Notes under the pieces: model-generated
Told to the model about the DNA's origin: nothing
Databases searched by the model: none
Seen by the model: the letters and a program-made list of their open reading frames with translations, nothing else
Made by a program: the position numbers and the translations under genes
Shown here: one piece after another, positions 6,140-25,003 of the stretch
Layout: the number at the start of each line of letters is the position of its first letter
Position numbering within the stretch: position 1 is the first letter of the stretch
Origin: Candidatus Omnitrophota bacterium
GTDB lineage: Bacteria; Omnitrophota; Gorgyraeia; Duberdicusellales; 4484-171
DNA: 64,000 bases
Direction of reading: 5' to 3'
Assembly (NCBI GenBank): GCA_043820815.1
Contig: JBDRDJ010000025.1
Coordinates: forward strand, 22,459 to 86,458

Positions 6140-6141
6140 AA

Positions 6142-12334: not shown

Positions 12335-12405
12335 TTAAAAAGCATTAAATCATAATTTTTAATTCAAATTTATAAATTTCTTCACCGCGAAGAGTGCTTT
12401 ATGGG

Positions 12406-13770
12406 TTAATTGCCTGCTGTTTCTTTAGCAGGTATTAGAAACTTTGGCAAAACAACCACTATTGCCGCCAATGTCCAAAATGGCTCCATTATTCGTATTA
12501 TAATGAAAGTTGCCGCGCTAAAACTATGAATGATTAATCCCGCAAGCCCGGCGATAAAGCCTACGATAAGGCCGTGGGCTAAGGGATCATTAATGGATTT
12601 CTTAAGATTGATAAAAGCCTGTTTAAACATAATTATAATAATCCAGAAGAAAGTAAGCAGGCCGGGCAGGCCTGTTTCAACCAACAGGCGTGAATACTGG
12701 TTGTCAACCGTAGGCCCGGGGTTTCCTACGCCGTAGCCGTAAAGGGGTGATTTAGAGAAACGCTCAAAATTCTCTTTCCATGAATCAATGCGGGCAGCCA
12801 GAGATTTATCCGTTGAAATAATTTGCCCGAGGACTATCCGTTCGGCATGGCTGGAAAAAGTATAAAGTAAACGTTCGTAAACAAATCCGGGAAGGAAGAA
12901 TGAACACCAGATGACAAGAAGCACAAAAACTGCGAATATGATAAGCTTACCTCTTTTGCTAAGAACAAAGAGCATTATGTATGCAGGAATAAGCCCCAGC
13001 CATGATCCACGGGAGAGAGTAAAAAGAAAGGCCGGTAAGCTAAAAAAGAGGGTAATAAAAAGAAACAATCTGGCCTTAAGCGTCTTAACACTAAATAGCA
13101 GGCCGGCCGCAATCATGATTAGAAGGAGCAGGTATCCTCCTAAGGTATTGGGTTCGCCGAATTTTCCCTCAAAAGGCGCAGTAACTCTTGCATGCCCTGA
13201 AAAATGAAGGCCCCAGGCGTAAATGCTTATTGATAAAGTAACAAAGAGCATGATAAAAATAAATCTTACAGCCTGTTTGCGGGTTTGAATCAGATTTACA
13301 ACCATGAAAAACAGAAGGAAATATTCAATATATTTAGCATTGTAGAAGAAAGTTTCTTTTATGGTTACGTTTCCGGCTAAGACAGCTATGCATGAAGCAA
13401 TTGCCGATACTGTGACATAAGCTAAGATAGGAAGGTTTAAGGGGTTAAATTGAAGCACTGTGAGTTCTTTGTGAACCGCAATCCGCGCCAGCCAGCCAAA
13501 CAAAATTACAAGCAGTAATATATCGTCAATGCGGACAACAACGGATCTTCCCGGGACACCGCCTACGGCAATCTCAGGTGACAGAAGCATTGAAAAAAGA
13601 ATTATAAAAAGCGCGAAATCGGTATGGATGAAGGCTATAAAAAAGAAGATTAAACCAAAAAAAAATGCTAATGTTTTTAAGGAAATTCCGAAGGATAGAA
13701 AAGAAACTAAGAAACCTAGTATGCATAAAATAAATATAACATCTCTATTCAGCTGGGCGTTTCTTTGCAT
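12406..13770 (-). CDS. O-antigen ligase/polymerase family membrane protein (Wzy_C-type)
   Basis: 454-aa polytopic protein with LSRGSWLGLIPAYIML and a large loop containing HAER...D. Polymerase and ligase roles cannot be told apart from sequence. Confidence 0.65.
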   Translation of the reverse strand: MQRNAQLNRDVIFILCILGFLVSFLSFGISLKTLAFFFGLIFFFIAFIHTDFALFIILFSMLLSPEIAVGGVPGRSVVVRIDDILLLVILFGWLARIAVHKELTVLQFNPLNLPILAYVTVSAIASCIAVLAGNVTIKETFFYNAKYIEYFLLFFMVVNLIQTRKQAVRFIFIMLFVTLSISIYAWGLHFSGHARVTAPFEGKFGEPNTLGGYLLLLIMIAAGLLFSVKTLKARLFLFITLFFSLPAFLFTLSRGSWLGLIPAYIMLFVLSKRGKLIIFAVFVLLVIWCSFFLPGFVYERLLYTFSSHAERIVLGQIISTDKSLAARIDSWKENFERFSKSPLYGYGVGNPGPTVDNQYSRLLVETGLPGLLTFFWIIIIMFKQAFINLKKSINDPLAHGLIVGFIAGLAGLIIHSFSAATFIIIRIMEPFWTLAAIVVVLPKFLIPAKETAGN

Positions 13771-13847
13771 ACATTTTGTTTAGAAGCTTCGCTTTCAGAT
13801 ACAAATCTTAAATTTGCGGGCTATCGAGTACGGGTTTTTGCGCCTTT

Positions 13848-15803
13848 TTAGCCTTTCGTTTTTTGTTCTTTTTTGCCTTTTTTTTCTTTTGGCGGATAAG
13901 ATGTATAGCGATACCGATAGTAATACGGGTCAATGTTTGTAAACTCTATTTCAGGCTTTATGTGGTTGAGCGCAATACCGATAATTTTTGCTTTTGCGGT
14001 TTCAAGCTGGGATTTAGCTCTCAAAAGCGCTTGGCGCGAAGTTCTTCCGATTTCATAGCATAGCAAGACTCCGTCAACTTTAGGGGCAAGAATGCTTGCG
14101 TCTGCAACAGGAAGAACAGGCGGCGTATCAAGAAGGATAACGTCGTATGTCTTTTTTAATTTGTCTAAAAGGTCAGCCATTTCCTTGGAGTCTAAAATTT
14201 CAACGGGGTTTAGAGGAAGTGTTCCCGCAGGGATAAGGGATAAGTATTCCAAGCCGGGGTGTTTAAGCATATCGTCAATACCCATTTCGCCAAAAATTAT
14301 ATCAGAACTCCGCCTTAAAGCCTGCTCAAACGAAACTGTTCCCATAATGATTTCGCTTAAACCCGGTTTCTTGGCTAAGCCAAAAGTCTCCGCGATAACC
14401 GGGCGGCGCAGGTCAGCGGAGATAATTAGCGTATGCAGGCCTTCCTGGGTACAAGCCAAGGCTAAATTTACAAGAAAGGTTGATTTTCCCTCTTGCGGCC
14501 CGGCGCTTGTAACCATAAGGGTTTTTCTTGAAGCCGATATCTTGATGTTTGCTTTTGCATTTCGAAAAGCTTCTGCTATGGGAGAACTTGGCTGGTAATG
14601 GACTAAAAGGCGCAGAGACTTCTGCTCTTCATGGGTGAGTTTTTTAGGAAAGAGCAGGCGCTTGATTTTCTGAGCCATGGTCGCTTGTTTTGTTCGTTTA
14701 AAGGGAATAGAAGGAATTATGCCCAATACAGGAAGCTTGGTTAAACTTTCAACATCTTCAATCGTTCCGATAGATGTGTCTAATGATTCGCTTACAAAAG
14801 CGAGTACGACTCCCACAATCAGCCCTAAAAATCCGCCTACGATAACGCCGAGTCTAGACTGGATATTTTCCGCAGATACAGGCATGAGCGCAGGGTCAAC
14901 GATTGTCACATCAGGGGTTTTTTCCGCTTCTGTAATCCTTACCTCTTCCAGTTTTTCGCGCAGCATACCGTAAATTTTACGGTTCACCTCAACTTCCCTT
15001 TTAATCCTTGCGTATTCAAGGTCTTTTCCTGAAAGGCCGCTTAATTGTTTTTCGATGTCCTTTATCTGCTGTTTTAACTGCATGATTTTGGGGTGCTTTT
15101 CAGTGTATTTCTGGCGGAAAGAGGCGAGCTGGAAAGTGAGTTCGTTTAATTTGTCCTGTATGTCCTGGGCAATTATGACATTTGCAACTTTTTCGCCGAA
15201 TGACTTCAGCTCGTCCTCTGATTTTCTCAATCTTTCTTCCAGCAAGCCGAGCTGGTCCTCAATAAATTTACGGGCAGTTCGGGCCTGCTTGTTTTTTTCA
15301 AGGAGGTTTTCTTCAATGTAAGCGGTAGCAACGGCGTTGGCAAGCTGCATTGCGCCCTTTGGGTCGCTTGATGTTGCGGTAATTTTGATGATATTGGTAA
15401 AACCAATTCTTGTTGTTGTTACCTTGTTCTGCAGGCCTCCGACAACTTCATAAACTCTTTCAGGGCTGTCTTTTTCATTTAGCAAACCGGTATTAAGAGC
15501 AACGCGTCGTATGATCGGAAAACCTTTTACAACTTTAGTTTGAGTTTCCATCATGTCGCCGGGGTTGACCATAACCCATTCAGCCATCATGCCGCCTACG
15601 GTTTTTCTCTCGGTAACTCTTACGGTTGCGTTGGCAGTATAGGAAGGGGTTTGAAAAGATATGTATACGGCTGCGGATATTGCGAATAAAACAAATGAGA
15701 AAGCTATGAGAAACTTACGTTTTCGTATAACCCGGATATAGTCGCGTAATGTTAATTCATATTGTGCCATATTTATTTTTTTGGTCGCAAAAAAGTCTTG
15801 CAT
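13848..15803 (-). CDS. Polysaccharide co-polymerase / BY-kinase (Wzc/GumC-like) with chain-length-determinant domain
   Basis: Wzz-like N-terminus with TM and coiled-coil region. Walker A SAGPQEGKST, A' ISADLRRP, Walker B DVILLDTPP, and C-terminal Tyr cluster DPYYYRYRYTSY. The true start is probably the internal MAQYELTL. Confidence 0.85.
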   Translation of the reverse strand: MQDFFATKKINMAQYELTLRDYIRVIRKRKFLIAFSFVLFAISAAVYISFQTPSYTANATVRVTERKTVGGMMAEWVMVNPGDMMETQTKVVKGFPIIRRVALNTGLLNEKDSPERVYEVVGGLQNKVTTTRIGFTNIIKITATSSDPKGAMQLANAVATAYIEENLLEKNKQARTARKFIEDQLGLLEERLRKSEDELKSFGEKVANVIIAQDIQDKLNELTFQLASFRQKYTEKHPKIMQLKQQIKDIEKQLSGLSGKDLEYARIKREVEVNRKIYGMLREKLEEVRITEAEKTPDVTIVDPALMPVSAENIQSRLGVIVGGFLGLIVGVVLAFVSESLDTSIGTIEDVESLTKLPVLGIIPSIPFKRTKQATMAQKIKRLLFPKKLTHEEQKSLRLLVHYQPSSPIAEAFRNAKANIKISASRKTLMVTSAGPQEGKSTFLVNLALACTQEGLHTLIISADLRRPVIAETFGLAKKPGLSEIIMGTVSFEQALRRSSDIIFGEMGIDDMLKHPGLEYLSLIPAGTLPLNPVEILDSKEMADLLDKLKKTYDVILLDTPPVLPVADASILAPKVDGVLLCYEIGRTSRQALLRAKSQLETAKAKIIGIALNHIKPEIEFTNIDPYYYRYRYTSYPPKEKKGKKEQKTKG

Positions 15804-15916: not shown

Positions 15917-16660
15917 GTGATTGAGTTACAAAATATTTCAAAATATTTCTTAACCAGAGAGAAAGCCCTTAATCTCTTTGCCCCGCCCAAAAAGGTAACT
16001 GCCTTAGAAAACGTTAACCTTAAAGTAAATAAAGGTGAAATCGCCGCGGTTCTTGGGCCAAACGGGGCAGGAAAAACCACACTGCTCAAGATTATGTGCG
16101 GCCTAATTATTCCTGACAGAGGGACAGTTACGGTTCAGGGAAGCTTAAATTACCTTTCCGGCGAAACATTCGGTTTCTACCCTCAGCTTACGGCATGGCA
16201 AAATCTCGAATTTTTCTCTGCTTTTTATAATTTACCCTCTCTTCTTCTTTGGCAGAGAGTGCAGGAATACAAGCACATAATAAGTTTAAGTGATTTTAAT
16301 AAGCCGTTCTGGAATTATTCAACCGGCCAGAAACACAGCCTTGCCATGCTTAGGCTTCTCGTTTTTGAGCCCGATATAATAATTCTTGATGAACCGACTA
16401 TTAATTTAGACCCTGATAATTCAATGAAGCTGAGAGGCATGCTCAGGCGTTTGTGTTCTGAATTTTCAAAAACAGTAATTTTTGCCACCCATTCACTTTA
16501 TGAGGCCGGGGAGATTGCCCAAAGAGTGGTCATTCTGCAACAGGGAAAACTGGTTTGCAATTGCGATATTTCCCGGCTGCAAAACCAAAACCCCTCGTCA
16601 GGGGGGCATCCCCTTGAAAAGCTTTATTTTGACAGCTTAAGAGAAATTAAAATCCAATAA
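15917..16660 (+). CDS. ABC transporter ATP-binding protein
   Basis: Walker A GPNGAGKTT, Walker B IIILDEP, H-loop ATHSL. The signature motif is degenerate (YSTGQ instead of LSGGQ). GTG start. Confidence 0.85.
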   Translation: MIELQNISKYFLTREKALNLFAPPKKVTALENVNLKVNKGEIAAVLGPNGAGKTTLLKIMCGLIIPDRGTVTVQGSLNYLSGETFGFYPQLTAWQNLEFFSAFYNLPSLLLWQRVQEYKHIISLSDFNKPFWNYSTGQKHSLAMLRLLVFEPDIIILDEPTINLDPDNSMKLRGMLRRLCSEFSKTVIFATHSLYEAGEIAQRVVILQQGKLVCNCDISRLQNQNPSSGGHPLEKLYFDSLREIKIQ

Positions 16661-17476
16661 ATGAATAAAACAGTAAGAAAAATTCTCATGTTCATCAAGC
16701 GGGATTTTTTGATAGCGGCAAGCTACCGCTTATCTTTTCTCTTAGATGCAATAACCATTCTCGCCTCGACAGCCACGTTTTTCTTTGTTTCCCGCCTTAT
16801 CCCCGCGGGAACTTCGGCTCACCTTAAGGAGTTCGGAGGAGATTATTTTTCCTTTGTCCTTATCGGCCTTGCCTTTAGCGGATACCTTCAGGCGGCGCTG
16901 CAAGGTTTTGCCCAAACTCTTTTGCATGAACAGTCTGAAGGGACTCTTGAAATACTTCTGCTTTCCCCAACTAAAATATCTACCCTTCTTGCCTGCGGGG
17001 CTGCCGCCAAGTTTACTCTTGCCACATTGCGCGTTGCCATATATTTCTTTTTAGGTTGGTTTATTTTCGGATTTTCTTTTGCCAGAATTAATGTCTTGTC
17101 TTTTTTAACAGTCTTGATTTTGACGGTTCTCAGCTTCAGTTCCCTGGGAATCATTTCTGCTTCATTTATTATTGTTCTTAAACGCGGGGACCCTGTGAGC
17201 TGGGTTACGGGAGGGCTATCAAGGCTTTTTGGCGGTGTTTTTTTTCCGGTTGCAGTTCTTCCCCCGATTCTAAAGAAAGTATCAGCCTTTATTCCCCTGA
17301 CTTATTCTTTGGATGGTATGCGTAAAAGCATCCTTCTTGGCGCAGGATTAGGCGATATCTTTCCCCAGGCTGCCATGCTTGCCCTTTTTTTTGCCGTGCT
17401 TTTTCCCGTAGGAACTCTCAGCCTCAAAAAGGCCCTTAATAAAGCCAAGAGAAACGGAAGCCTCCTCTATTCGTAG
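16661..17476 (+). CDS. ABC-2 type transporter permease
   Basis: 271 aa, about 6 TM segments, immediately following the ATPase (TAA then ATG). The 3' end overlaps the convergent minus-strand gene by 10 nt. Confidence 0.7.
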   Translation: MNKTVRKILMFIKRDFLIAASYRLSFLLDAITILASTATFFFVSRLIPAGTSAHLKEFGGDYFSFVLIGLAFSGYLQAALQGFAQTLLHEQSEGTLEILLLSPTKISTLLACGAAAKFTLATLRVAIYFFLGWFIFGFSFARINVLSFLTVLILTVLSFSSLGIISASFIIVLKRGDPVSWVTGGLSRLFGGVFFPVAVLPPILKKVSAFIPLTYSLDGMRKSILLGAGLGDIFPQAAMLALFFAVLFPVGTLSLKKALNKAKRNGSLLYS

Positions 17477-18609
17477 AATGGCTGAGAGTTGAGGGTGCGC
17501 AAGCCGCCGAGGGCGCGCCTTAAATAATGTTTGGCGGTAATTTTTTCAAAAGGGATATTGTATTTATGCACGAGCACCGATTTATCAGGCAGGAAAGTTC
17601 TCTTAATAAACTTCGTTTTGCTTGCAGCGCCCTCCTGGCTCAAGAAAAGAACTATGTAAGAGACGTATCTTTTTCTCGCCTTAAGAGCGGCGAGCTTACC
17701 CAATAGAATGTTGGAATAGGAAAAACTATCAATATCAAATAATTTTTTTTCAAAAATATTGTTAATAAGGTTCGCCGCGTAATAAAAATAAGGCTCAATC
17801 CTCCACTTCTTTGCCTTCTCATAAATACTGCCAAAAGCTATTTCGCTTTTATACACCGATAAAGCGCAAGCTAAATCCGCTAACAAAATTAACTTATTGA
17901 AACCATGCAGAAGGCCGTGAAAACAAAGGTGTAAAATTAAATCATCGGGCGATAAAACAAAAATATTTTTAGCGCAAACCCTGCTGGTTCCGGCGTTTTC
18001 CCAGATTTGTTTTATATCAATAGATTGGGCAAACCTTGCTACCGGCCAGGTTGAGTTAACAATATGCCAGTGGATATGCAAAAAGTAGGATAAGGGCAGA
18101 GGCGCTTTATACATTATGTTATTTATTGATCCATAAGATGACATTTTTAAGAAATTTTCTGCCCTGCTCAACGGCAAGTACCCCATAGAACAAAGAAGCT
18201 CATCGGTTTTGATAAGATCATGCCTCTTGATTAAAAGGTCTATGTCTGTCATCGGGCGAAGAGCGGGATTTTTATAGGCGTTTTCCATTAAGAAAATACC
18301 CTTAAGGGCAAGTAAATCAATGTTTTTTTGGGAGAAAATGCCGAAAAGTTTTTCACATTCCTGCATGAGAAAAATGTTTCTTGCCGCTGTTTTATAATAA
18401 CGCTCTTTGAGCAGGGCTTTAGCTTTTAAGGGAATTTTAGCGGTTAAATTATTTTCTTTCAATCTTTGGTAAAACAGCTCCCCAACCGATTCTTTAAGGG
18501 AAAGAAGAGTAAACTGTTCCCAGTTAAAATAACGGCGGCTTGCTTTTTGTAAAAAGAAACCGCTGTTAAAGCCTAAAAGAAAACTGATTAAGCATTGATC
18601 GGGTTTCAT
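17467..18609 (-). CDS. Uncharacterised-nucleotidyltransferase family protein (PF14907-like)
   Basis: LLALKGIFLMENAYKNPALRPMTDIDLLIKRHDL matches the family core. The start was moved to the internal ATG at 18609, which forms an ATGA overlap with the upstream stop. The track ORF extends to 18705. Confidence 0.7.
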   Translation of the reverse strand: MKPDQCLISFLLGFNSGFFLQKASRRYFNWEQFTLLSLKESVGELFYQRLKENNLTAKIPLKAKALLKERYYKTAARNIFLMQECEKLFGIFSQKNIDLLALKGIFLMENAYKNPALRPMTDIDLLIKRHDLIKTDELLCSMGYLPLSRAENFLKMSSYGSINNIMYKAPLPLSYFLHIHWHIVNSTWPVARFAQSIDIKQIWENAGTSRVCAKNIFVLSPDDLILHLCFHGLLHGFNKLILLADLACALSVYKSEIAFGSIYEKAKKWRIEPYFYYAANLINNIFEKKLFDIDSFSYSNILLGKLAALKARKRYVSYIVLFLSQEGAASKTKFIKRTFLPDKSVLVHKYNIPFEKITAKHYLRRALGGLRTLNSQPFYE

Positions 18610-19508
18610 TCTTCTTTGGCAAGTAGTTTTGAAAGTACTATTCTCTTTCGCCTTGATATTTTTTCTTCTGTGGCAAGCTGTCGGTCTATTTCTAAGACAG
18701 CGCATTTCTTAAAGCCCAGGCTTTGATAGAGATCCAAAGCTGCCTTGCTGTCAGAAAAAGCCAAAAGATTAACTTGTTTTGTCCCTTTCAAAGCGGCTAA
18801 TTCAACGGCCTTGTTGACAAGCCGGTTTGCGATACCGCATCTGCGGTAAGGCCAGTTAACCCAGGTTGAAAATATCCACCACCCTTTAAAATCAGGCTCG
18901 CTGTCGGGAAAAAAGCTCAATGTAACCCTGCCGATTATTTTAACGGCTTTTTTGGCGCGTATAGAAAAATCAGAAGGTGAAATATTTACGATTGAAAAAT
19001 CCTCATCTATTTTTACAAGCCTGCGGGCGATAAAGCGGTAAATTGATAAACCCTGAATGCGATAAAGGAGAAAAGCGGCAAGTTTCTTAAAACGCAATAA
19101 AGCTCTTGACAGAAAAAGGGCAGCAGTTTTCTTAAATTGCCCTGGTTTTCTTTCTACATGTATTGGATGGCTGTTGCGTTCAATTGCACAGACCCTGCCG
19201 ATTACATTTTCTAAGTCAACTGCTTCATCAGCGCCGTTTAAAGAATCGCCGCCGGTATAAATTAATATTTTCTCTTGTTCTTTCTCTATTCTTTTTATGC
19301 GGTGAATAACAGGGCATTTACCGTTTCTTAGAAAAAAAATAATTTCTCCCTCTTTCAAGGTTTCTTTTATGGGCTTTTCTAAGGTGAGGATATCGCCGTC
19401 TTTTATTGCCGGATGCATGCTTTTTCCTTTGGCTTTAAACCTTAAAAGCCTCGCATCATCCATTAAACGGGTGCTTATGTTTATAAAATCACGGGAGGAA
19501 CACTTCAT
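18606..19508 (-). CDS. S24/S26-type (SipW/Sec11-like) serine peptidase domain fused to GNAT acetyltransferase
   Basis: N-terminal KGKSMHPAIKDGDIL...VIHRIKRI (Ser and His/Lys peptidase motifs). C-terminal RRCGIANRLVNKAVELA...ALDLYQSLGFKK (GNAT motif A). Confidence 0.65.
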   Translation of the reverse strand: MKCSSRDFINISTRLMDDARLLRFKAKGKSMHPAIKDGDILTLEKPIKETLKEGEIIFFLRNGKCPVIHRIKRIEKEQEKILIYTGGDSLNGADEAVDLENVIGRVCAIERNSHPIHVERKPGQFKKTAALFLSRALLRFKKLAAFLLYRIQGLSIYRFIARRLVKIDEDFSIVNISPSDFSIRAKKAVKIIGRVTLSFFPDSEPDFKGWWIFSTWVNWPYRRCGIANRLVNKAVELAALKGTKQVNLLAFSDSKAALDLYQSLGFKKCAVLEIDRQLATEEKISRRKRIVLSKLLAKEE

Positions 19509-20349
19509 TTTCTAGAAACTTGATTATGTTTTTATCGGGAAAAAAGCCCAGCTCAAAAGCAGGGCACCTCTGGCCTGCCTTGTGGCAAAAACACAGGCTA
19601 AAAGCCACCGAATCCCTGTTCCAGAAGGGAATGAAACCTGCGGTTATAAGGCGGCAGGCAGCTTCCCGCGAAGAAAGAACGCGTATTCTATTTTCAGGGC
19701 TTTTGGCAAGGAAAAAAATCCCTCCCAAAGGAGCATGGCCCGGAGAATAAGTTTTTGCCTCGCCGTGCCAAGGGGTTCCGTACGCAAATAAACGCCTGTT
19801 TTTGTTTCGGATTATTATCCTGTCGTCGCTAAGGATTAAGGTATTTTTTTCTTTCCTGAAAAAAGAAGTAATCGTGCTTTTTCCCGCTCCCGAGGCGCCG
19901 GCAAAAAGGTAAGCTTTGTTATTTCTAACAATTCCCGCCGCGTGAACCATGATGCCGCGGCCGCCTGAAAGAGAGCTGATTATCGCGATTTCATCAAGAG
20001 GGTAATTTACTATTGAGCCGGCCAAACGCCTGCCTTTAAGCCGGACAGAAGCATGCCGGAAATCATCGCTAAAAACAGCGTCAGAGGCAGTTGTTTTAAT
20101 AAAATATTTGGTATGGCCCTTGTCGGTATTTATTTTGTAAAGAGACCAGCTATCCTTTGCCTTAAACACGGCCTTTCTATATAAATGGCTGTTTGGGAGC
20201 TTTTGGCATAAACAGAGACTTATGTCTATACGGGAGGATTTTTGGCTTAAGAACGATTTAACCGGGTTATTAACAATGTATTTCTCTTTGGTTAAATTTT
20301 CTAAGGATATAGCAATATCACCGATGGAGAAATTAAAAACCTTTCTCAT
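19489..20349 (-). CDS. HPr kinase/phosphorylase-like P-loop protein (RiPP-kinase type)
   Basis: MVHAAGIVRNNKAYLFAGASGAGKSTI...LSDDRIII...GTPWHGE resembles the HprK C-terminal domain as found in lasso-cluster kinases. Confidence 0.7.
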   Translation of the reverse strand: MRKVFNFSIGDIAISLENLTKEKYIVNNPVKSFLSQKSSRIDISLCLCQKLPNSHLYRKAVFKAKDSWSLYKINTDKGHTKYFIKTTASDAVFSDDFRHASVRLKGRRLAGSIVNYPLDEIAIISSLSGGRGIMVHAAGIVRNNKAYLFAGASGAGKSTITSFFRKEKNTLILSDDRIIIRNKNRRLFAYGTPWHGEAKTYSPGHAPLGGIFFLAKSPENRIRVLSSREAACRLITAGFIPFWNRDSVAFSLCFCHKAGQRCPAFELGFFPDKNIIKFLENEVFLP

Positions 20350-20361
20350 TAAACAACCCTG

Positions 20362-20523
20362 TCAGCTTCCTTGGGTGGTTTTACAGCCGGATGTTACCGG
20401 AGGGCAGCGGTCGCTTTTCCCGCCGACTCCGCTTGTGGTTTTACATCCGGTTAAAACAGCCTCTTCTAAAAGAAGCTTTATTTTAGTAAGCTGTGGTTTT
20501 TGATAAACTTTCTTTTTCTTCAT
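20362..20523 (-). CDS. Candidate RiPP precursor peptide (53 aa; below the ORF-track size cutoff)
   Basis: Hand translation gives MKKKKVYQKPQLTKIKLLLEEAVLTGCKTTSGVGGKSDRCPPVTSGCKTTQGS*. GGAGGTGG lies about 4 nt upstream of the ATG. It sits in the 196-nt gap between the rSAM and kinase genes and carries a duplicated GCKTT motif. Confidence 0.65.
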   Translation of the reverse strand: MKKKKVYQKPQLTKIKLLLEEAVLTGCKTTSGVGGKSDRCPPVTSGCKTTQGS

Positions 20524-20545
20524 CTTCCACCTCCTTGTCTTTATG

Positions 20546-21628
20546 TTACCTTATTTTTGCCTTAAGAGCAAGGCCGAGTTTTTCAGCGCGTAAATGCGCG
20601 GTTTGGCAAAGGTAGCTTACAGTGGCCTGATTATCATTATGTTCAAACTGGCTCCACCCCGGGCATTGGCTGCATAGATTGCTTATCTGGCAAATACGGC
20701 AGGGGTTATTGTATGACAACTTCTCTTTTAACGCCTGCGCTATATCATTATTCCAGGCATTGCCAAAAGGCCCCGCGGTTATATCGCAAGAAGGCTTTCT
20801 TGCCATAACGCAGGGGCTTAAATTGCCCTCTGGGTCAATATGAAAAGATGTAACTCCGGCACTGCAATTGTAGATATTGCCTGATTCATTATTCAAGGGG
20901 TATTGTTTTAAGAATTTGTTCCAGGATTCAGATCTTTTTTTATTAGAAAAATCTAAACCAACCGCCTCTTGAGGAGAAATCCTATACCGGCATGGGGCGG
21001 ATGAGCTTTCTATGGTTGAATTGATAGAAGCGTCAATACGGAAGCTTACGCCTAAATCCTCGGCATAGCGGGAGATTGCCTCTATCTCGGCTAAATTAAT
21101 TGTTAAAGCCATTGTTTTTAAGGAAAACTTGACCTTCCTTTCAATTAACCTGTTAATTCCCTCTAAACAGGCTTTAAATGAGCCGGTAACCCCGGTAACC
21201 GCTTCGTAGGTAGAAGATTTTATGCCGTAAAGGCTTATTTCCACATTCAAGGGCGGGTATTCTCTTAAGAAATCGGCAATCTCATCGGTTATAAGTGTCG
21301 CGTTTGTAAAAAGAGTTGTTAATATGCCTTTTTTCTTGGCATAGGCATAAATTTTTGTAAAATCAGGGTGGTAAAGAGGCTCTCCTCCTGTAAATAAAAG
21401 CCATAGGCAGCCGTTTTCTGAGATTTGATCAATTAGCCGGCGCATCTTCTCTATGCCCAGTGGCCTGGGCGAAGCATGTTTTGGGCAGTAGCAATGAACG
21501 CAGGAAAGATTACAGGCAAAGCTAATCTCCCATGTGCCGCTTACAGGTATTCTTTTCTTATGAGCGGTTTTGTAAATTCTTTCCGTGAATTCGCTATATG
21601 ATATATGGGAGGCATAAAGGCAGGTCAT
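20546..21628 (-). CDS. Radical SAM / SPASM-domain peptide-maturase-like enzyme
   Basis: CNLSCVHC (Cx3Cx2C), GGEPL, and a Cys-rich C-terminus (CSAG...GNLSPC...CRICQISNLCSQCPG...LC) typical of SPASM/twitch auxiliary clusters. Confidence 0.8.
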   Translation of the reverse strand: MTCLYASHISYSEFTERIYKTAHKKRIPVSGTWEISFACNLSCVHCYCPKHASPRPLGIEKMRRLIDQISENGCLWLLFTGGEPLYHPDFTKIYAYAKKKGILTTLFTNATLITDEIADFLREYPPLNVEISLYGIKSSTYEAVTGVTGSFKACLEGINRLIERKVKFSLKTMALTINLAEIEAISRYAEDLGVSFRIDASINSTIESSSAPCRYRISPQEAVGLDFSNKKRSESWNKFLKQYPLNNESGNIYNCSAGVTSFHIDPEGNLSPCVMARKPSCDITAGPFGNAWNNDIAQALKEKLSYNNPCRICQISNLCSQCPGWSQFEHNDNQATVSYLCQTAHLRAEKLGLALKAKIR

Positions 21629-21910
21629 TTATTTAGCGGTAACGGCTTTATTGTTTAATAGGGTTTGGATAAACTCGCTTACATCGATTTTAGCCTGGTT
21701 AAGGCTTACCTCAAATTCTTCACTAACTTCGTTTGCGATATCGCCGGTTCTGCGGCTGCCGTCAATCAGCTCCCATATTCTTGCCGCGGTTTCATTTAAC
21801 GCAAAGATATTTTCAAAATCAGCAACTCTGCTCTGGACAGGAACGAGTATGGTTTCATCTCCTATCTTTCTAAAAACGATTTTAGGGTTTTTTTCAACGG
21901 TTTTTACCAT
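21629..21910 (-). CDS. PqqD-family protein (RiPP recognition element)
   Basis: 93 aa. VFRKIGDETILVPV...FALNETAARIWELIDGSRRTGDI...EVSLNQAKIDVSEFIQTLL is a PqqD-like pattern. Its ATG overlaps the wza stop by 7 nt. Confidence 0.8.
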   Translation of the reverse strand: MVKTVEKNPKIVFRKIGDETILVPVQSRVADFENIFALNETAARIWELIDGSRRTGDIANEVSEEFEVSLNQAKIDVSEFIQTLLNNKAVTAK

Positions 21911-23025
21911 TTCATTGCCGTATCAGCAGTGCTTACGCCGGTTGATATAGGGTCAAGTATCTTAGTTAAAAAATAATTTAAGTCAGCCACGAATTTCTTG
22001 GGAACATAGACAATATCCTGGGAGTTTAAGTTGACGTTTTCGATTACTTTGCCTTTGGTAATAGCCTGCGACAGGTTAATCCGTTTAGGCTGAGGATTTT
22101 GGATGCCGCCTTCAACCACAATAACGCTTCTTAGAACCGCATCGTCGGTGAAGCCTCCGGCTAAAGCGACTGCTTCGAGAACGGTTCTTGTATCTTTTAG
22201 CGAATATATGCCCGGCCTTGCCACTTCGCCAAGGACAATTACGCGGTTACCTTCGATTCTTTTAAGCGATATCGAAACATCAGGGTAAATTATATATTCT
22301 CTTAAGCGTTCTGTTACCGCTTTGTCAAGCTCGGAAAGGGTGAATCCCTCGGCTTCTACTTCGTCAATCAGGGGGAAAGAAATTCTTCCGTCCGGCCCCA
22401 CTATTACATCGCGGGTTAAATCGGGATTTTCCCATACGCTTATGTTTATGATATCGCCCACCCCTATCACATATCCTCCGCTTTGAGATTTCAGCGTGCG
22501 GAATGACTTGTTTTGCGGCTGAGGTTCCATGGGGCTCTGTGCTTTTAAGTTTTCCTTCTTGATTGCTTCTATAGCACTTTTGGTTTTAGCCACTTCCTCT
22601 TGGAGCCGGCCCTTGGCGTGCTCTAAGGATTTGCTCTGTTTAAGGGTGCTTTCGAGTTTTTCACTGAGTATTTTAAGTTCGTTATCTTTCTTCGCGACCG
22701 CCTCTTCTAGCGCGCTCTGTTCATTTAGCGATTGTTCTATTTTTGACCGCAGTAAATCGTTATCGAGTTTTAAACTTTTATCATTAGGGTCCAATGCCAA
22801 AGGAACATTTTTACTTTTGTTCTCAAGTAAGATAAGAGGGCGTTTATGGGTTTTGGCCTCAGGCAAAGCCGGTTTGGGCTTGATTGGGGCAGTGCCCGCT
22901 GAATATGCAGCGTCACTTTCCTCTTCTATGCCGGATAAAACTGAATTCTGGTTATAAATGATAATGCCGCCAAAGAAAAGAAAAATTGTTAGAACCGTTA
23001 TGCCTATAAAAGTTTCCTTATGCAT
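21904..23025 (-). CDS. Polysaccharide export protein (Wza/OPX family) with long N-terminal TM + coiled-coil extension
   Basis: The Poly_export core GDIINISVWENPDLTRDVIVGPDGRISFPLIDEVEAEGFTLSEL is followed by an SLBB-like region. The first ~185 aa are a TM helix plus a heptad-rich region. Confidence 0.8.
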   Translation of the reverse strand: MHKETFIGITVLTIFLFFGGIIIYNQNSVLSGIEEESDAAYSAGTAPIKPKPALPEAKTHKRPLILLENKSKNVPLALDPNDKSLKLDNDLLRSKIEQSLNEQSALEEAVAKKDNELKILSEKLESTLKQSKSLEHAKGRLQEEVAKTKSAIEAIKKENLKAQSPMEPQPQNKSFRTLKSQSGGYVIGVGDIINISVWENPDLTRDVIVGPDGRISFPLIDEVEAEGFTLSELDKAVTERLREYIIYPDVSISLKRIEGNRVIVLGEVARPGIYSLKDTRTVLEAVALAGGFTDDAVLRSVIVVEGGIQNPQPKRINLSQAITKGKVIENVNLNSQDIVYVPKKFVADLNYFLTKILDPISTGVSTADTAMKW

Positions 23026-23027
23026 TC

Positions 23028-24128
23028 TTACAAGCTCCCTGTAATATAAATCCTTGTTCCCTGGCTTAAATCAATGGTGCGCGGAGTCTCAAGTTTATTA
23101 CCTTCCTGGTCGTATTCGACATGCACTACCGGGCGCATTGATATTTTGGGATTTTGTTTGATTACCCGGGCGATCTCTTCGGTATTTAATTTAACAAAAG
23201 TCCCCCGCGGATAAATGCCGATTCTCTCAAGCATGATTTTGGCAAGTTTTTCACTGAAAGATTTCTTGTCCTCCAAGATAATCCTTATAGCCTCAAGAGG
23301 TGAATATTCATCACGGTAAGGCCGGGGGTGCGTTAAGGCTTCATAAACGTCTACAAGCCCGATTATCTGGGCGGGTTCGCAAATCTCGTCTTTGGTTAGG
23401 CCTTTGGGGTAGCCGCTTCCGTCAATGCGTTCGTGAACCTGTTCTATGATATCGGCGATTGAGGTGTCGGGCCCGGTTTCATACTGTATACGCTTTATAA
23501 TTTCCGCGCTTGAGACGGGGTAATGTTTAAGCTTTGCTTTTTCTTCATCAGTCAATTTTCTGTTTAACGATATTAAATTACGGTATTCTTTCATTCCGAT
23601 ATCGTGTAAAAAAGCAACGGTACCGAGTTTAAGAAGTTCATCGCGGCCATATCCTAAAACAACGCCTATTTCTAAAGATAAAACACAGACATTTAGAAAA
23701 CTTAAAACCGTAGGGTCAATTTTTTGATCTTTTTGTATTGAGAAAACATATTCGAGAACCTGCTGGTCTTCGGCGTTTACGTAGGTAATTAATTCTTCAA
23801 CAATGCTTTGAACCTGCTTAAGTTCTTTTGATGAGAATTCTAAATCGGTTGAGAAAATCTTCTGGGCCAATGCTACGGCATTGTTGTAGGTGTCTTTTAC
23901 GTCGGCAGGGTCAGGCTGGCTGCCGACACCTTCTTTTATTTCAGAAAATTCAATGCGGCCTGCGCTGTTGGGCTTAGGGTCTGGTTTGCTTTTGGGCGCT
24001 GAGAACCCATCTTTTCCTATAAATGAGGAAAAGTCAATCCCTGAGCTGTCAGGCTTATCTTTCTTTTTTTTGCCGGGAGGTTCTTTTTTTTGGTTCTGGT
24101 TATCAAACATCTCCGAGAAGTCTGTCAT
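23028..24128 (-). CDS. HD-GYP domain protein (putative c-di-GMP phosphodiesterase)
   Basis: FLHDIGM and VHERIDGSGYPKGL motifs, with a disordered Lys/Pro-rich N-terminus. Confidence 0.8.
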   Translation of the reverse strand: MTDFSEMFDNQNQKKEPPGKKKKDKPDSSGIDFSSFIGKDGFSAPKSKPDPKPNSAGRIEFSEIKEGVGSQPDPADVKDTYNNAVALAQKIFSTDLEFSSKELKQVQSIVEELITYVNAEDQQVLEYVFSIQKDQKIDPTVLSFLNVCVLSLEIGVVLGYGRDELLKLGTVAFLHDIGMKEYRNLISLNRKLTDEEKAKLKHYPVSSAEIIKRIQYETGPDTSIADIIEQVHERIDGSGYPKGLTKDEICEPAQIIGLVDVYEALTHPRPYRDEYSPLEAIRIILEDKKSFSEKLAKIMLERIGIYPRGTFVKLNTEEIARVIKQNPKISMRPVVHVEYDQEGNKLETPRTIDLSQGTRIYITGSL

Positions 24129-24208
24129 ATAAAACTCTCCCCTTTGGTTAATTAAAAGGTAAGGTTTTGTACGGGACGGAATAAATTAAAAGAAGCGGCA
24201 TATACCCG

Positions 24209-25003
24209 TTAACTTTCTTCGCGTAAATCACGAGCAACGTGAAGAACAACTTCGTCGCCGATTATATCCAGCCTGCGTATAAAACCGGTTAAAAGCGACA
24301 GGTCGCAGATATTGTTGATTGCACGGGGCATTCCCTTTGAAAGATTAAATATATGCATGTATGTGGTCTCTTCGAAAAGATTTTGAGTTGTTCCGGCGAC
24401 TTTAAGGCGGTATTTGATATATTCTTTTACTTCTTCTTTGTCCAAAGACAACAACTGGTAACGGATTGAAATCCGCTGCTTAAGCTGGGGGAACTTCTCG
24501 ATTTTTTCTTCAAGCTGCGGCTGGCCGCATAAAATCAATGTAAATAATGCATGTGAATCTGCCTGGATATTTAAAAGAAGCCGGATCTCCTCCATCAAAT
24601 CATCATCGGTTATACTTTGAGCTTCGTCAATAAGAAGAACAGGGCGCAGGTCGCGGTTGAAATAATGTTCAAGGCGTTCCTTTATCGAACGAAGCATATC
24701 CATTTTTGTAGTTGCGGGAGAGTATACTCTGTCGCCGCCCATCTGAAAATTAACTTCCTGGATAAACTCAATCGGCGTAAGGCGCGGGTTAGGGATAAAA
24801 TTAACAACGCATTTACCCTCAAGGCACATTTTCATAAGCGCACTGCTTACAAATGTTTTGCCTACACCGTAATCGCCGGTTAAAATTACACCTACCTTTC
24901 TTTGTATTACAGCATATTGCATTCTTGCCAATGCTTCTTTATGGTGCGATGAATAATAAAAGAAAGAAAGGTCATTGGTGTTTTCAAACGGCATTTTTTG
25001 CAA
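24209..25003 (-). CDS. ExeA/GspA-like AAA ATPase
   Basis: Walker A GDYGVGKT and Walker B LLIDEAQ, with the typical ExeA-like layout. The track start is TTG. An ATG 9 nt downstream (MPFENT) is equally plausible. Confidence 0.7.
   Translation of the reverse strand: MQKMPFENTNDLSFFYYSSHHKEALARMQYAVIQRKVGVILTGDYGVGKTFVSSALMKMCLEGKCVVNFIPNPRLTPIEFIQEVNFQMGGDRVYSPATTKMDMLRSIKERLEHYFNRDLRPVLLIDEAQSITDDDLMEEIRLLLNIQADSHALFTLILCGQPQLEEKIEKFPQLKQRISIRYQLLSLDKEEVKEYIKYRLKVAGTTQNLFEETTYMHIFNLSKGMPRAINNICDLSLLTGFIRRLDIIGDEVVLHVARDLREES

What the first reader, a model, noticed from the sequence alone, without database searches (positions are those of the whole stretch)
20362..20523. Unannotated 53-aa Cys/Thr-rich precursor candidate with duplicated GCKTT motif and C-terminal Ser
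The 196-nt gap between the rSAM and kinase genes holds a minus-strand ORF below the track cutoff: MKKKKVYQKPQLTKIKLLLEEAVLTGCKTTSGVGGKSDRCPPVTSGCKTTQGS. A GGAGGTGG Shine-Dalgarno sequence sits just upstream of its ATG.
The layout looks like a leader plus core. The N-terminus is basic and helical (KPQLTKIKLLLEEAVL). It is followed by a Gly/Ser/Thr-rich core with three Cys.
The DNA shows a 15-nt direct repeat, GTGGTTTTACA(G/T)CCGG, spaced 60 nt apart. This encodes (T/S)GCKTT twice, 20 residues apart.
Cys next to Thr or Asp is what thioether-forming rSAM enzymes act on. The terminal Ser is the position phosphorylated by HPr-kinase-type RiPP kinases.
Basis: seen in the sequence. Interest (0 to 1): 0.85.

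Follow-up and report, generated by a model that had tools for sequence, protein, structure and literature searches.

The report
Precursor peptide of unstudied rSAM-kinase RiPP
The 53-codon ORF is a real, widely conserved gene for a small cysteine-containing peptide that very probably is cross-linked by the neighbouring radical SAM enzyme and phosphorylated on its last serine, which makes it the substrate of a large family of peptide natural products that has not been characterised.

Summary
The ORF at 20362-20523 (-) exists, has a Shine-Dalgarno site, and carries the duplicated (T/S)GCKTT motif. GenBank already lists it as a hypothetical protein of a Candidatus Omnitrophota MAG.

It is a real gene. 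A related peptide lies beside the radical SAM gene in 46 of 47 syntenic loci, usually between it and the kinase gene, and these loci come from at least 15 phyla. A profile finds 1,763 cluster representatives, none with a name or a Pfam/NCBIfam model.

The family signature is K-x-x-Y-x-K-P-x-L...E-E-(A/V)-(V/L)-L-x-G-C-K, followed by two more Cys and a C-terminal Gly-Ser.

Four neighbouring genes match the core set of the "linear polyphosphorylated peptides" (LPPs) reported in 2026 and of paeninodin-type lasso peptides:
- a discrete lasso-type RRE (PqqD)
- an HprK-like kinase
- an NTP_transf_5 transferase

The radical SAM/SPASM enzyme is an addition to that set.

Likely pathway (inferred): the RRE binds the YxKPxL leader, the radical SAM enzyme makes Cys-based cross-links, the kinase phosphorylates the terminal Ser, the transferase decorates the phosphate, and the peptidase removes the leader.

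The GCKTT duplication is confined to close relatives. The chemistry is untested. I rate this a new variant of known kinds.

The parts
20362..20523 (-). Precursor peptide gene (53 aa plus stop): MKKKKVYQKPQLTKIKLLLEEAVLTGCKTTSGVGGKSDRCPPVTSGCKTTQGS
   Evidence: ORF. Identical GenBank protein. A family HMM hits it at E 8.7e-16 and finds only one copy in the window. Under purifying selection.
20527..20534 (-). Shine-Dalgarno-like GGAGGTGG; the octamer ends 3 nt before the ATG (6 nt after the GGAGG core)
   Evidence: Read directly from the sequence.
20446..20523 (-). Predicted leader, residues 1-26, if cleavage follows Gly26. Contains Y7-x-K9-P10-x-L12 (20488-20505) and the invariant E21.
   Evidence: In 266 relatives: Y 265/266, P 266/266, L 88%, and E at Y+14 100%. 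YxxPx[LVIFA] is the motif bound by lasso and LPP RREs (PMC13381572). The leader/core boundary is inferred, not shown.
20365..20445 (-). Predicted core, residues 27-53: CKTTSGVGGKSDRCPPVTSGCKTTQGS. Cys27, Cys40 and Cys47 are the family-invariant Cys. Ser53 (20365-20367) is the conserved C-terminal residue.
   Evidence: Invariant columns C27, K28, C40, C47 and near-invariant G52, S53 in 116 sequences. Three Cys in 261 of 266 relatives.
20375..20390 (+). Copy 1 of the 16-nt direct repeat; encodes SGCKTT, residues 45-50
20435..20450 (+). Copy 2 of the 16-nt direct repeat; encodes TGCKTT, residues 25-30
20546..21628 (-). Radical SAM/SPASM enzyme (360 aa) without an N-terminal RRE domain
   Evidence: - Pfam Radical_SAM and SPASM.
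- Invariant CX3CX2C (C39, C43, C46) plus 7 SPASM Cys.
- Best PDB sequence hit is SkfB.
- AF2 model has pLDDT 84. Its top structural neighbours are SuiB, CteB, SkfB, PqqE and anSME.
- It is below every NCBIfam equivalog cutoff.
21629..21910 (-). Discrete PqqD-family RRE (93 aa)
   Evidence: Pfam PqqD, E 3e-17. The family profile's best PDB hit is the lasso RRE TbiB1 (E 9e-13), ahead of PqqD itself (8e-6).
19489..20349 (-). HprK-like (ScmC-like) P-loop kinase (286 aa)
   Evidence: - Weak NCBIfam hits to ScmC, HprK_rel_B and HprK_rel_A.
- All 32 orthologues hit HprK_rel_B, and 14 hit Pfam Hpr_kinase_C.
- The profile's best PDB hit is HPr kinase 1jb1/2qmh, E 4e-6.
- Pfam ScmC (PF27840) is recorded on orthologues.
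18606..19508 (-). Archaeal-type signal peptidase I (SipW/LppS-like) domain fused to a GNAT acetyltransferase (300 aa)
   Evidence: NCBIfam sigpep_I_arch scores 56.5 bits, above the 51.85 cutoff; GNAT domain present. Near-invariant S30 and invariant M31-x-P33, H69-R70 and D88 (G87 near-invariant), compared with LppS S29/H68/D93.
17467..18609 (-). NTP_transf_5 nucleotidyltransferase-fold protein (PsmN/LppN-like). The ORF opens at 18705, but the likely start is the ATG at 18609, which overlaps the upstream stop as ATGA.
   Evidence: Pfam PF14907, E 7e-47. Frame and fusion analysis. Fused to the peptidase in L002, L003, L009 and L019.
15917..17476 (+). ABC-2-type exporter pair (ATPase 15917-16660, permease 16661-17476), convergent with the cluster; a probable exporter
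   Evidence: Pfam ABC_tran and ABC2_membrane. The same convergent position after NTP_transf_5 is kept in L002, L009 and L019, and partial permease hits occur in L006 and L034.
21904..23025 (-). Wza-like polysaccharide export protein whose end overlaps the PqqD start by 7 nt. Listed as operon context, not as core.
   Evidence: Pfam Poly_export and SLBB. The same gene lies directly upstream of PqqD in L001 and L003.

Best explanation
The ORF encodes the precursor (leader plus core) of a ribosomally synthesised, post-translationally modified peptide.

The producing operon on the minus strand reads: PqqD-type RRE, radical SAM/SPASM enzyme, precursor, HprK-like kinase, signal-peptidase-I/GNAT, NTP_transf_5. 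An ABC-2 exporter lies convergent to it. The operon sits inside an exopolysaccharide locus.

Proposed order of events:
1. The discrete RRE binds the leader through Y7-x-x-P10-x-L12, as lasso B1 and LPP LppB proteins do.
2. The RRE presents the peptide to the rSAM/SPASM enzyme, which uses the three invariant Cys (27, 40, 47) to make intramolecular cross-links. Thioethers of the sactionine or ranthionine type are the most likely product.
3. The HprK-like kinase phosphorylates, possibly polyphosphorylates, the conserved C-terminal Ser53.
4. NTP_transf_5 adds a further group, such as a hexose, to that phosphate, as PsmN does.
5. The cytoplasmic archaeal-type signal peptidase removes the leader. 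The candidate sites are after Gly26 (a small residue at -1; family consensus A-x-G|C-K) or after Ala22 (the LPP register, two residues past the invariant Glu).
6. In this subgroup the fused GNAT may acetylate the new N-terminus.
7. The ABC-2 pump exports the product.

What is shown: gene reality, conservation, synteny, domain identities and motif conservation. What is inferred: every chemical step, the order of steps and the cleavage site.
For: Gene reality and linkage:
- Exact ORF and SD site.
- Purifying selection.
- The family HMM finds a homologue in 46 of 47 single-rSAM syntenic loci from at least 15 phyla. It nearly always sits between the rSAM and kinase genes.
- There are 585 hits in the 90% database and 1,763 representatives at E<=1e-3 in the 50% database. 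Among those listed (the best 120 and 150), all but one are 51-83 aa (the exception is 113 aa), and most matches run to the last residue.
- Three independent context look-ups all show PqqD, Radical_SAM, the peptide and ScmC. Two also show Peptidase_S24, and one of those also NTP_transf_5.

Leader recognition:
- Y, P, L and E are invariant or nearly so.
- The RRE profile is closest to the lasso RRE TbiB1, and to 9x8z/9x90 PqqD-family chaperones.
- YxxPx[LVIFA] is experimentally required for RRE binding in lasso and LPP systems (PMC13381572).

rSAM acting on Cys:
- Three invariant Cys with constrained spacing, C-x12-15-C-x4-5-C-x3-4-G-S.
- The rSAM has a full 7-Cys SPASM signature.
- Its sequence and structure neighbours are RiPP maturases, including the thioether formers SkfB, CteB, AlbA and PapB.
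- It lacks the N-terminal RRE that SkfB and AlbA carry, which fits an RRE supplied in trans.

Kinase, transferase and peptidase:
- HprK-family assignment.
- C-terminal Ser/Thr in 265 of 266 relatives.
- PadeK and PsmK phosphorylate a C-terminal Ser, and PsmN adds hexose to that phosphate (PMC6993621).
- LppS, an SpI-like peptidase with an S/H/D triad, is an RRE-dependent leader peptidase. The same triad positions are conserved here.
- Peptidase-NTP_transf_5 gene fusions occur in four loci.
Against: - No expression, mass-spectrometry or enzymology data exist for any member.
- rSAM chemistry cannot be read from sequence. The top structural neighbour, SuiB, makes a Lys-Trp C-C bond, and anSME oxidises Cys, so thioether formation is only the favoured guess.
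- No acceptor residue is conserved next to the Cys.
- In the only characterised SpI/RRE/HprK/NTP-transferase system (LPP), the kinase modifies Ser3 of the core, not the C-terminus, and the NTP transferase showed no activity.
- All enzymes score below the NCBIfam equivalog cutoffs, so function transfer is at superfamily level only.
- NTP_transf_5 was detected in only a minority of the syntenic loci.
- In the window, the -3 residue of the Gly26 site is Leu and that of the Ala22 site is Glu. Neither cleavage site is a textbook signal peptidase I site.
Confidence: 0.72

Rival explanations
1. The peptide is an LPP-like linear (poly)phosphorylated peptide, and the rSAM does something other than Cys thioether formation. 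Possibilities include epimerisation, a C-C or C-O cross-link, or Cys oxidation. The three Cys would then serve as disulfide or metal ligands or as later attachment points.
For: - The four-gene module is the LPP core set.
- The structural neighbours include SuiB, anSME and the epimerase EpeE.
- No conserved Thr/Asp/Asn acceptor lies beside the Cys.
- The invariant Lys after Cys1 is unexplained by the thioether model.
Against: - The only invariant core residues are the three Cys and Lys28. Their number and spacing are tightly kept wherever the rSAM is present.
- No Trp or other aromatic partner is conserved.
- The 7-Cys SPASM signature fits thioether synthases, although it is not exclusive to them.
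Confidence: 0.18
2. It is a small secreted lipoprotein or membrane peptide of the entericidin type. The L-T-G-C sequence would be a lipobox, and the link to the rSAM genes would be incidental.
For: L24-T25-G26-C27 fits [LVI][ASTVI][GAS]C. NCBIfam gives weak hits to entericidin A and B (E 0.01 and 0.05; 15.8 and 13.3 bits).
Against: - The stretch before the Cys contains Lys and two Glu (KIKLLLEEAVL), and the family consensus RLRxIELAAEEVLAxGC is even more charged. There is therefore no signal-peptide h-region.
- The family consensus before Cys is A-V-G, not a lipobox.
- The entericidin scores are far below the cutoffs of 86 and 94 bits.
- Strict synteny with PqqD and the rSAM across phyla is not explained.
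Confidence: 0.03
3. It is a chance ORF in an intergenic spacer and is not translated.
For: It is short, and no expression data exist. Promoter and terminator scans are at background level.
Against: Strong SD site, conservation of the reading frame, pN well below pS, and 1,763 related representatives of the same length class that keep the same N- and C-terminal signatures.
Confidence: 0.02

Closest known systems
Linear polyphosphorylated peptides (LPPs) of Bacillota (Popov et al., Nat Commun 2026, PMC13381572)
   Same: [quoted passage not shown]
- The leader has a YxxPx(L/V) motif and a Glu 14 residues after the Tyr.
- Both are embedded in polysaccharide biosynthesis loci.
   Different: - A radical SAM/SPASM enzyme is a constant member here, whereas the LPP paper's text contains no mention of radical SAM enzymes.
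- The core is short (about 27 aa) with three invariant Cys and a C-terminal Gly-Ser, not a variable 35-200 aa precursor.
- The rest of the LPP leader motif (VLxHQxIxFET) is absent.
- The exporter is ABC-2 type, not MsbA-like.
- The family occurs in at least 15 mostly Gram-negative or candidate phyla, whereas LPPs are described as restricted to Bacillota.
- The LPP phosphosite is core Ser3.
Paeninodin/pseudomycoidin-type phosphorylated lasso peptides (PadeK, PsmK, PsmN)
   Same: - Y/WxxP leader bound by a discrete PqqD-like B1 RRE.
- The precursor ends in Ser, which the HprK-type kinase (poly)phosphorylates.
- An NTP_transf_5 protein adds hexose to the phosphate (PMC6993621; PMC5067487).
- Related multi-rSAM-cassette peptides (not the window peptide) give a weak hit to the PadeA leader model.
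   Different: - No macrolactam synthetase (C) or B2 transglutaminase-type peptidase is present in the operon genes or in the other flanking genes that were scanned.
- There is no Asp/Glu ring acceptor pattern.
- A Cys-based core and an rSAM enzyme take their place.
Sactipeptide and ranthipeptide maturation (AlbA, SkfB, CteB, PapB)
   Same: SPASM-domain rSAM with two auxiliary-cluster motifs, a Cys-containing core, an RRE-guided leader, and these enzymes as sequence and structure neighbours.
   Different: - The RRE is a separate lasso-type protein rather than an N-terminal domain.
- Scores are far below every equivalog cutoff.
- The leader motif is the lasso type, not HIxxI.
- The kinase, NTP-transferase and signal-peptidase tailoring set is unknown for these classes.
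SynChlorMet (SCM) cassette and HprK-related kinase A/B systems (NCBIfam TIGR04248-04251, TIGR04352, TIGR04355; Pfam ScmC PF27840)
   Same: The same protein types occur: ScmC-like kinase, ScmD-like PqqD, and ScmE/F-like rSAM/SPASM. All give sub-threshold hits. Multi-rSAM relatives (L049-L081) carry related peptides.
   Different: - The window has one rSAM, not two.
- All scores are well below the SCM cutoffs, both for the window and for the multi-rSAM locus L070.
- No NCBIfam or Pfam model matches the peptide.

Membership tests
LPP (linear polyphosphorylated peptide) BGC | SpI-like archaeal-type signal peptidase I with a Ser/His/Asp triad | tested here: met
   TIGR02228 scores 56.5 bits, above the 51.85 cutoff. 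Near-invariant S30 and invariant H69 and D88 in 17 orthologues.
LPP (linear polyphosphorylated peptide) BGC | Discrete RRE of the lasso-like PqqD type | tested here: met
   PF05402, E 3e-17. Profile best PDB hit is TbiB1, E 9e-13.
LPP (linear polyphosphorylated peptide) BGC | HprK-like kinase | tested here: met
   All 32 orthologues hit HprK_rel_B, and HPr kinase is the best PDB hit. This holds at superfamily level only; all scores are below the cutoffs.
LPP (linear polyphosphorylated peptide) BGC | Uncharacterised NTP transferase (LppN/PsmN type) | tested here: met
   PF14907, E 7e-47. Direct comparison with LppN was not possible.
LPP (linear polyphosphorylated peptide) BGC | MsbA-like exporter | tested here: not met
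   The adjacent transporter is ABC_tran plus ABC2_membrane.
LPP (linear polyphosphorylated peptide) BGC | Leader consensus YxxPxVLxHQxIxFETxxS | tested here: not met
   Only YxxPxL and the Glu at Y+14 are shared. HQ, F and T are absent.
LPP (linear polyphosphorylated peptide) BGC | Linear product with no cyclising or class-defining enzyme | tested here: not met
   An rSAM/SPASM gene is adjacent in 46 of 47 loci.
Paeninodin-type lasso peptide | Asn-synthetase-like macrolactam synthetase (C) and B2 cysteine peptidase | tested here: not met
   Neither appears among the ORFs scanned between 10.8 and 30 kb of the window.
Paeninodin-type lasso peptide | Precursor ends in Ser and has a Y/WxxP leader | tested here: met
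Paeninodin-type lasso peptide | Match to NCBIfam lasso_PadeA_fam (NF033524) | tested here: not met
   No hit for the window peptide. Two multi-rSAM relatives score 12-13 bits against a cutoff of 27.
Sactipeptide/ranthipeptide | rSAM/SPASM maturase of the AlbA/SkfB/PapB/StsB families | tested here: not met
   Scores of 53-76 bits against cutoffs of 300-850. The fold-level resemblance is met.
Sactipeptide/ranthipeptide | Cys sulfur to alpha/beta/gamma-carbon thioether links in the product | not testable with these tools
   Requires mass spectrometry or NMR of the modified peptide.
SynChlorMet cassette (ScmC/D/E/F) | Proteins reach the ScmC, ScmD, ScmE and ScmF equivalog cutoffs; two rSAM genes | tested here: not met
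   ScmC 33 against 125, ScmD 29 against 100, ScmF 77 against 400, ScmE 59 against 400. Only one rSAM gene.
SCIFF (six Cys in forty-five) | Match to the SCIFF precursor model with a six-Cys core | tested here: not met
   No NCBIfam hit, and only three Cys.
Bacterial lipoprotein (entericidin-like) | Signal peptide with an uncharged h-region followed by a lipobox | tested here: not met
   The lipobox-like LTGC is present, but charged residues (K, E, E) lie in the supposed h-region. The family consensus is not a lipobox. Scores are 15.8 and 13.3 bits against cutoffs of 86 and 94.

The most novel reading that the evidence does not exclude
The cross-linked peptide is not a free natural product. It is joined through its C-terminal phosphoserine to a sugar or polysaccharide chain, by NTP_transf_5 together with the surrounding EPS machinery. 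The result would be a RiPP-phosphoglycan conjugate, that is, a peptide primer, cap or anchor for exopolysaccharide, exported by the ABC-2/Wza system. In other lineages the product would be handled by the very large surface proteins ending in a C25 peptidase domain that are encoded next to the cassette.

Evidence compatible with this reading:
- The Wza-like gene overlaps PqqD in the same operon here, and lies directly upstream of PqqD in L001 and L003.
- EPS genes lie near 10 of 50 loci.
- PsmN-dependent hexosylation of a phosphoserine is known.
- The authors of the LPP paper suspect that polysaccharide genes contribute to modification.
- Genes for C25-domain proteins lie immediately upstream of the cassette in 10 of 50 loci.
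Probability: 0.12. Interest if true: 0.85.

Novelty: new variant of a known kind. Interest (0 to 1): 0.62.

Why it matters
If the model holds, it has four consequences:
- It identifies the substrate peptide for a very large, phylogenetically broad set of orphan radical SAM/PqqD/ScmC-like cassettes. These are found mostly in uncultured Omnitrophota, Acidobacteriota, Nitrospirota, Desulfobacterota, Chloroflexota, Verrucomicrobiota and others.
- It shows that the RRE, HprK-kinase, signal-peptidase and NTP-transferase module, recently described as a Bacillota speciality (LPPs and paeninodins), is widespread. It also shows that the module has been recombined with a radical SAM cross-linking enzyme.
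- It gives a short, conserved and easily synthesised substrate (53 aa) on which rSAM chemistry, C-terminal phosphorylation and the still unknown reaction of NTP_transf_5 can be tested.
- The recurrent placement in polysaccharide loci bears on the open question of what phosphorylated lasso and LPP peptides do in cells.

Tried and rejected
Literature:
Terms included HPr kinase + radical SAM + PqqD, SynChlorMet, PF14907, ScmC, and YxxP + radical SAM. None found a description of an rSAM-containing version of this system.
- The library lacks most subscription journals, so this absence is not proof.
- Haft & Basu 2011 could not be opened.

Searches that gave nothing useful:
- The peptide profile against PDB chains gave only chance hits.
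- The kinase as a single sequence against the PDB gave only P-loop noise; a profile was needed.
- NTP_transf_5 against the PDB gave nothing.
- The Rfam scan of 17.0-25.5 kb gave nothing.
- The promoter and terminator scan was at background level.

Hypotheses tested and dropped:
- I tested whether the multi-rSAM relatives are true SCM cassettes. L070 proteins stay far below the Scm cutoffs, so the cluster is not filed under SCM.
- I rejected the lipoprotein/entericidin reading, the SCIFF reading and the chance-ORF reading (see rival explanations).
- I rejected the idea that the GCKTT duplication is the functional hallmark, because it is confined to close relatives.
- I considered a frameshifted peptidase-transferase fusion in the window. 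The two genes are instead separate, with an ATGA stop/start overlap.
Full report
**Observation.** The minus-strand ORF at 20362-20523 is present and translates to MKKKKVYQKPQLTKIKLLLEEAVLTGCKTTSGVGGKSDRCPPVTSGCKTTQGS.
- It fills a 196-nt gap between a 360-aa ORF (20546-21628) and a 286-aa ORF (19489-20349).
- GGAGGTGG lies at 20534-20527, 3 nt before the ATG.
- The direct repeat is 16 nt. It lies at 20375-20390 and 20435-20450 with 60-nt spacing. It occurs nowhere else in the window, and 0 matches are expected by chance.
- The repeat encodes TGCKTT and SGCKTT, 20 residues apart.
- The identical protein is already in GenBank as a hypothetical protein (ABH872_06075) of a Candidatus Omnitrophota MAG.

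**It is a real gene.**
- A word-based protein search found one 68%-identical, 53-aa homologue. It lies on a contig with the same order: Poly_export, PqqD, Radical_SAM, peptide.
- Between the two genes pN is 0.24 and pS is 0.74, and 29 of 57 differences fall at third codon positions. The alternative frames are broken by stops.
- I fetched 80 genome loci using an alignment of the rSAM family and mapped the window's proteins onto them.
- Forty-seven loci (L001-L046 and L048) have one copy of this rSAM family in the PqqD-rSAM(-kinase) arrangement. The kinase is found in 44 of them, and a signal-peptidase-like gene in many (NTP_transf_5 in only about ten).
- A small ORF related to the window peptide is found in 46 of the 47, usually between the rSAM and kinase genes.
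- The hosts span Omnitrophota, Fermentibacteria, Aerophobetes, Aminicenantes, Acidobacteriota, Nitrospirota, Nitrospinota, Desulfobacterota and other Deltaproteobacteria, Myxococcota, Chloroflexota, Verrucomicrobiota, Planctomycetota, Binatia, WOR-3 and Actinomycetes.
- A profile of 41 such peptides finds 585 proteins in the 90% database. The 120 best are listed; none has a Pfam domain, and the only names sources give them are 'hypothetical protein'.
- A profile of 116 peptides finds 1,763 representatives (E<=1e-3) among 1.84 billion. The 150 listed are nearly all 51-83 aa, and most matches run to their last residue.
- Neither Pfam nor NCBIfam r20 has a model for the peptide.

**Family signature**.
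- The N-terminus is basic.
- Next comes Y-x-K-P-x-L-R-x-I-x-L-A-A-(E/D)-E-V-L-A-x-G-C-K. Y is present in 265 of 266, P in 266 of 266, Glu at Y+14 in 100%, and Cys at Y+20 followed by Lys in 100%.
- Then follow 12-15 variable Gly/Ser/Thr/Pro-rich residues, Cys2, 4-5 residues, Cys3, and 3-4 residues.
- The peptide ends in Gly-Ser. The last residue is S in 258 and T in 7 of 266, and GS occurs in 243.
- Three Cys occur in 261 of 266.
- The window peptide fits this pattern with slightly longer spacers.
- Its second G-C-K-T-T, at Cys3, is seen fully in L001 and partly in four other relatives (L002, L003, L005, L007). It is not a family hallmark.

**The neighbours**.

*PqqD-family RRE (21629-21910).*
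- A profile of 33 orthologues matches the lasso-peptide RRE TbiB1 best (E 9e-13).
- Two PqqD-family chaperone entries (9x8z, 9x90) come next, well ahead of PqqD of PQQ synthesis (8e-6).

*Radical SAM/SPASM enzyme (20546-21628).*
- It has CX3CX2C and seven invariant SPASM Cys.
- It lacks the ~80-100-residue N-terminal extension seen in SkfB and AlbA (alignment offsets), where such maturases carry their peptide-binding domain (from general knowledge).
- Its AlphaFold model (pLDDT 84) is closest to SuiB, CteB, SkfB, PqqE and anSME.
- It is below every NCBIfam equivalog cutoff.

*P-loop kinase (19489-20349).*
- All 32 orthologues hit HprK-related kinase B, 28 hit ScmC, 19 hit HprK-related kinase A, and 14 hit Pfam Hpr_kinase_C.
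- The best PDB match is HPr kinase/phosphorylase, across the His, P-loop and DDR region.

*Signal peptidase I plus GNAT (18606-19508).*
- This is an archaeal-type (SipW-like) signal peptidase I domain; TIGR02228 scores above its cutoff.
- S30 is near-invariant; M31-x-P33, H69-R70 and D88 are invariant, and G87 is near-invariant.
- In the window it is fused to a GNAT domain.

*NTP_transf_5 (17467-18609).*
- It matches PF14907 at E 7e-47.
- In the window it starts at an ATGA stop/start overlap.
- It is fused to the peptidase in L002, L003, L009 and L019.

*Transporter and wider context.*
- An ABC-2 exporter pair lies convergent at 15917-17476. That position is kept in three loci (L002, L009, L019), with partial permease matches in two more.
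- The operon begins with a Wza-like export gene that overlaps PqqD.
- It is surrounded by Wzx-, Wzy- and Wzz/GNVR-type genes and a gene for a PEP-CTERM-type ATPase.

**Comparison with the literature.**
- Popov et al. (Nat Commun 2026, PMC13381572) described linear polyphosphorylated peptides (LPPs) in Bacillota.
- The LPP leader carries YxxPxVLxHQxIxFET. YxxP is needed for RRE binding, the RRE presents the leader to the peptidase, and the kinase polyphosphorylates core Ser3.
- LPP clusters sit in capsular polysaccharide loci and are stated to be restricted to Bacillota. 'Radical SAM' does not occur in that paper's text.
- In paeninodin and pseudomycoidin, the HprK-type kinase phosphorylates the C-terminal Ser, and the NTP transferase PsmN is required for hexose addition to that phosphate (PMC6993621).
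- The window cluster therefore contains the LPP/paeninodin recognition-and-tailoring module.
- It differs by three additions: a constant radical SAM/SPASM partner, a short Cys3 core, and a paeninodin-like terminal Ser.

**Mechanism.** The steps are given under Best explanation.
- Shown: gene reality, synteny, domain identities and motif conservation.
- Inferred by homology to tested systems: RRE binding through YxKPxL, and leader removal by the signal-peptidase-like enzyme.
- Inferred from conservation alone: the rSAM acts on the three Cys (thioether favoured), and the kinase targets Ser53.
- Weakest step: what NTP_transf_5 and GNAT add.
- The leader/core boundary is open. Gly26|Cys27 fits the small -1/-3 rule in the family consensus (A-x-G|C). 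Ala22|Val23 fits the LPP register relative to Tyr and Glu.

**Rivals.**
- A non-thioether rSAM reaction on an otherwise LPP-like peptide cannot be excluded (0.18).
- The lipoprotein reading fails because the pre-Cys segment is charged and the lipobox is not conserved.
- The chance-ORF reading is excluded by conservation.

**Novelty and verdict.**
- All parts are known RiPP components.
- The combination, the peptide family and the phyletic breadth are not described in the libraries and papers I could search.
- Membership in LPP, lasso, sacti/ranthipeptide, SCM and SCIFF fails on at least one defining feature in each case.
- I rate it a new variant of known kinds, with interest 0.62.
- The main caveats are that there are no experimental data for any member, and that the literature coverage excludes most subscription journals.

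Noticed in passing
L015, L030, L036, L039, L040, L043, L044, L082, L084, L085 (ORF ending just upstream of PqqD, or of the rSAM gene in L085; e.g. L084:1-6586, L015:1-6672): In 10 of 50 single-rSAM loci, from several phyla, a large protein ending in a Peptidase_C25 (gingipain-like) domain is encoded immediately upstream of the cassette on the same strand. Two are about 1,200 aa. The other eight are at least 2,100 aa, run off the end of the locus, and reach up to 3,442 aa. L038 has a subtilase in that position. The window has a Wza-like gene there instead.
   Followed up: partly
L002:3892-5973, L003:9174-10784, L009:3845-6070, L019:5177-6874; window 18606-18609: The signal-peptidase (with or without GNAT) and NTP_transf_5 are fused into one ORF in four loci. 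In the window they are separate genes joined by an ATGA stop/start overlap, so the 412-aa ORF call (start at 18705) probably overextends the transferase.
   Followed up: yes
L049:8230-8418, L057:7669-7851, L060:5893-6081, L061:1536-1739 and 6123-6326, L070:5847-6056, L081:8104-8295: Multi-rSAM cassettes (kinase, rSAM, PqqD, peptidase, rSAM) carry related peptides that have W-x-K-P instead of Y-x-K-P. Most have more Cys (3-6), and all still end in Ser. This Y/W split mirrors the RRE discrimination between LPP (YxxP) and paeninodin (WxxP) leaders reported in 2026. The two peptides of L018 also have WxxP.
   Followed up: partly
L016, L017, L020-L022, L024-L027, L031 (about 200 nt after the rSAM match, e.g. 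L026:8000-8269): In acidobacterial loci the rSAM reading frame continues for about 70 more residues. The extension contains C-x-x-C and ends in a Cys/Gly-rich tail, typically ...GGCGSCGxH. This extension is absent from the window enzyme.
   Followed up: no
window 23028-25003; L007:2718-4493; L008:338-1000 and 9656-10420: An HD-GYP-like HD-domain protein and a PEP-CTERM-type AAA ATPase (TIGR03015, below cutoff) lie next to the cassette in the window and also in an Aminicenantes locus and a Syntrophaceae locus.
   Followed up: no
L034:2184-2312 and 2740-3777: The one syntenic locus without a family peptide (WOR-3) has a different small ORF, MGKQKKTYEKPKVSELKVLEKGRAFYGVLACGCGCSAQRPSP. It keeps the YxKPxV leader but has a CGCGC core, and it is followed by a second rSAM gene.
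   Followed up: no
L018:5742-5888 and 5898-6074: Two tandem precursor genes with different cores lie in one Nitrospirae locus.
   Followed up: no
window 10829-15803 and 21904-23025: The cluster sits inside a typical Wzx/Wzy-type exopolysaccharide locus (Polysacc_synt_3, Wzy_C, Wzz/GNVR tyrosine-kinase-like, Poly_export). EPS-type homologues were detected within 7 kb in 10 of 50 related loci.
   Followed up: partly
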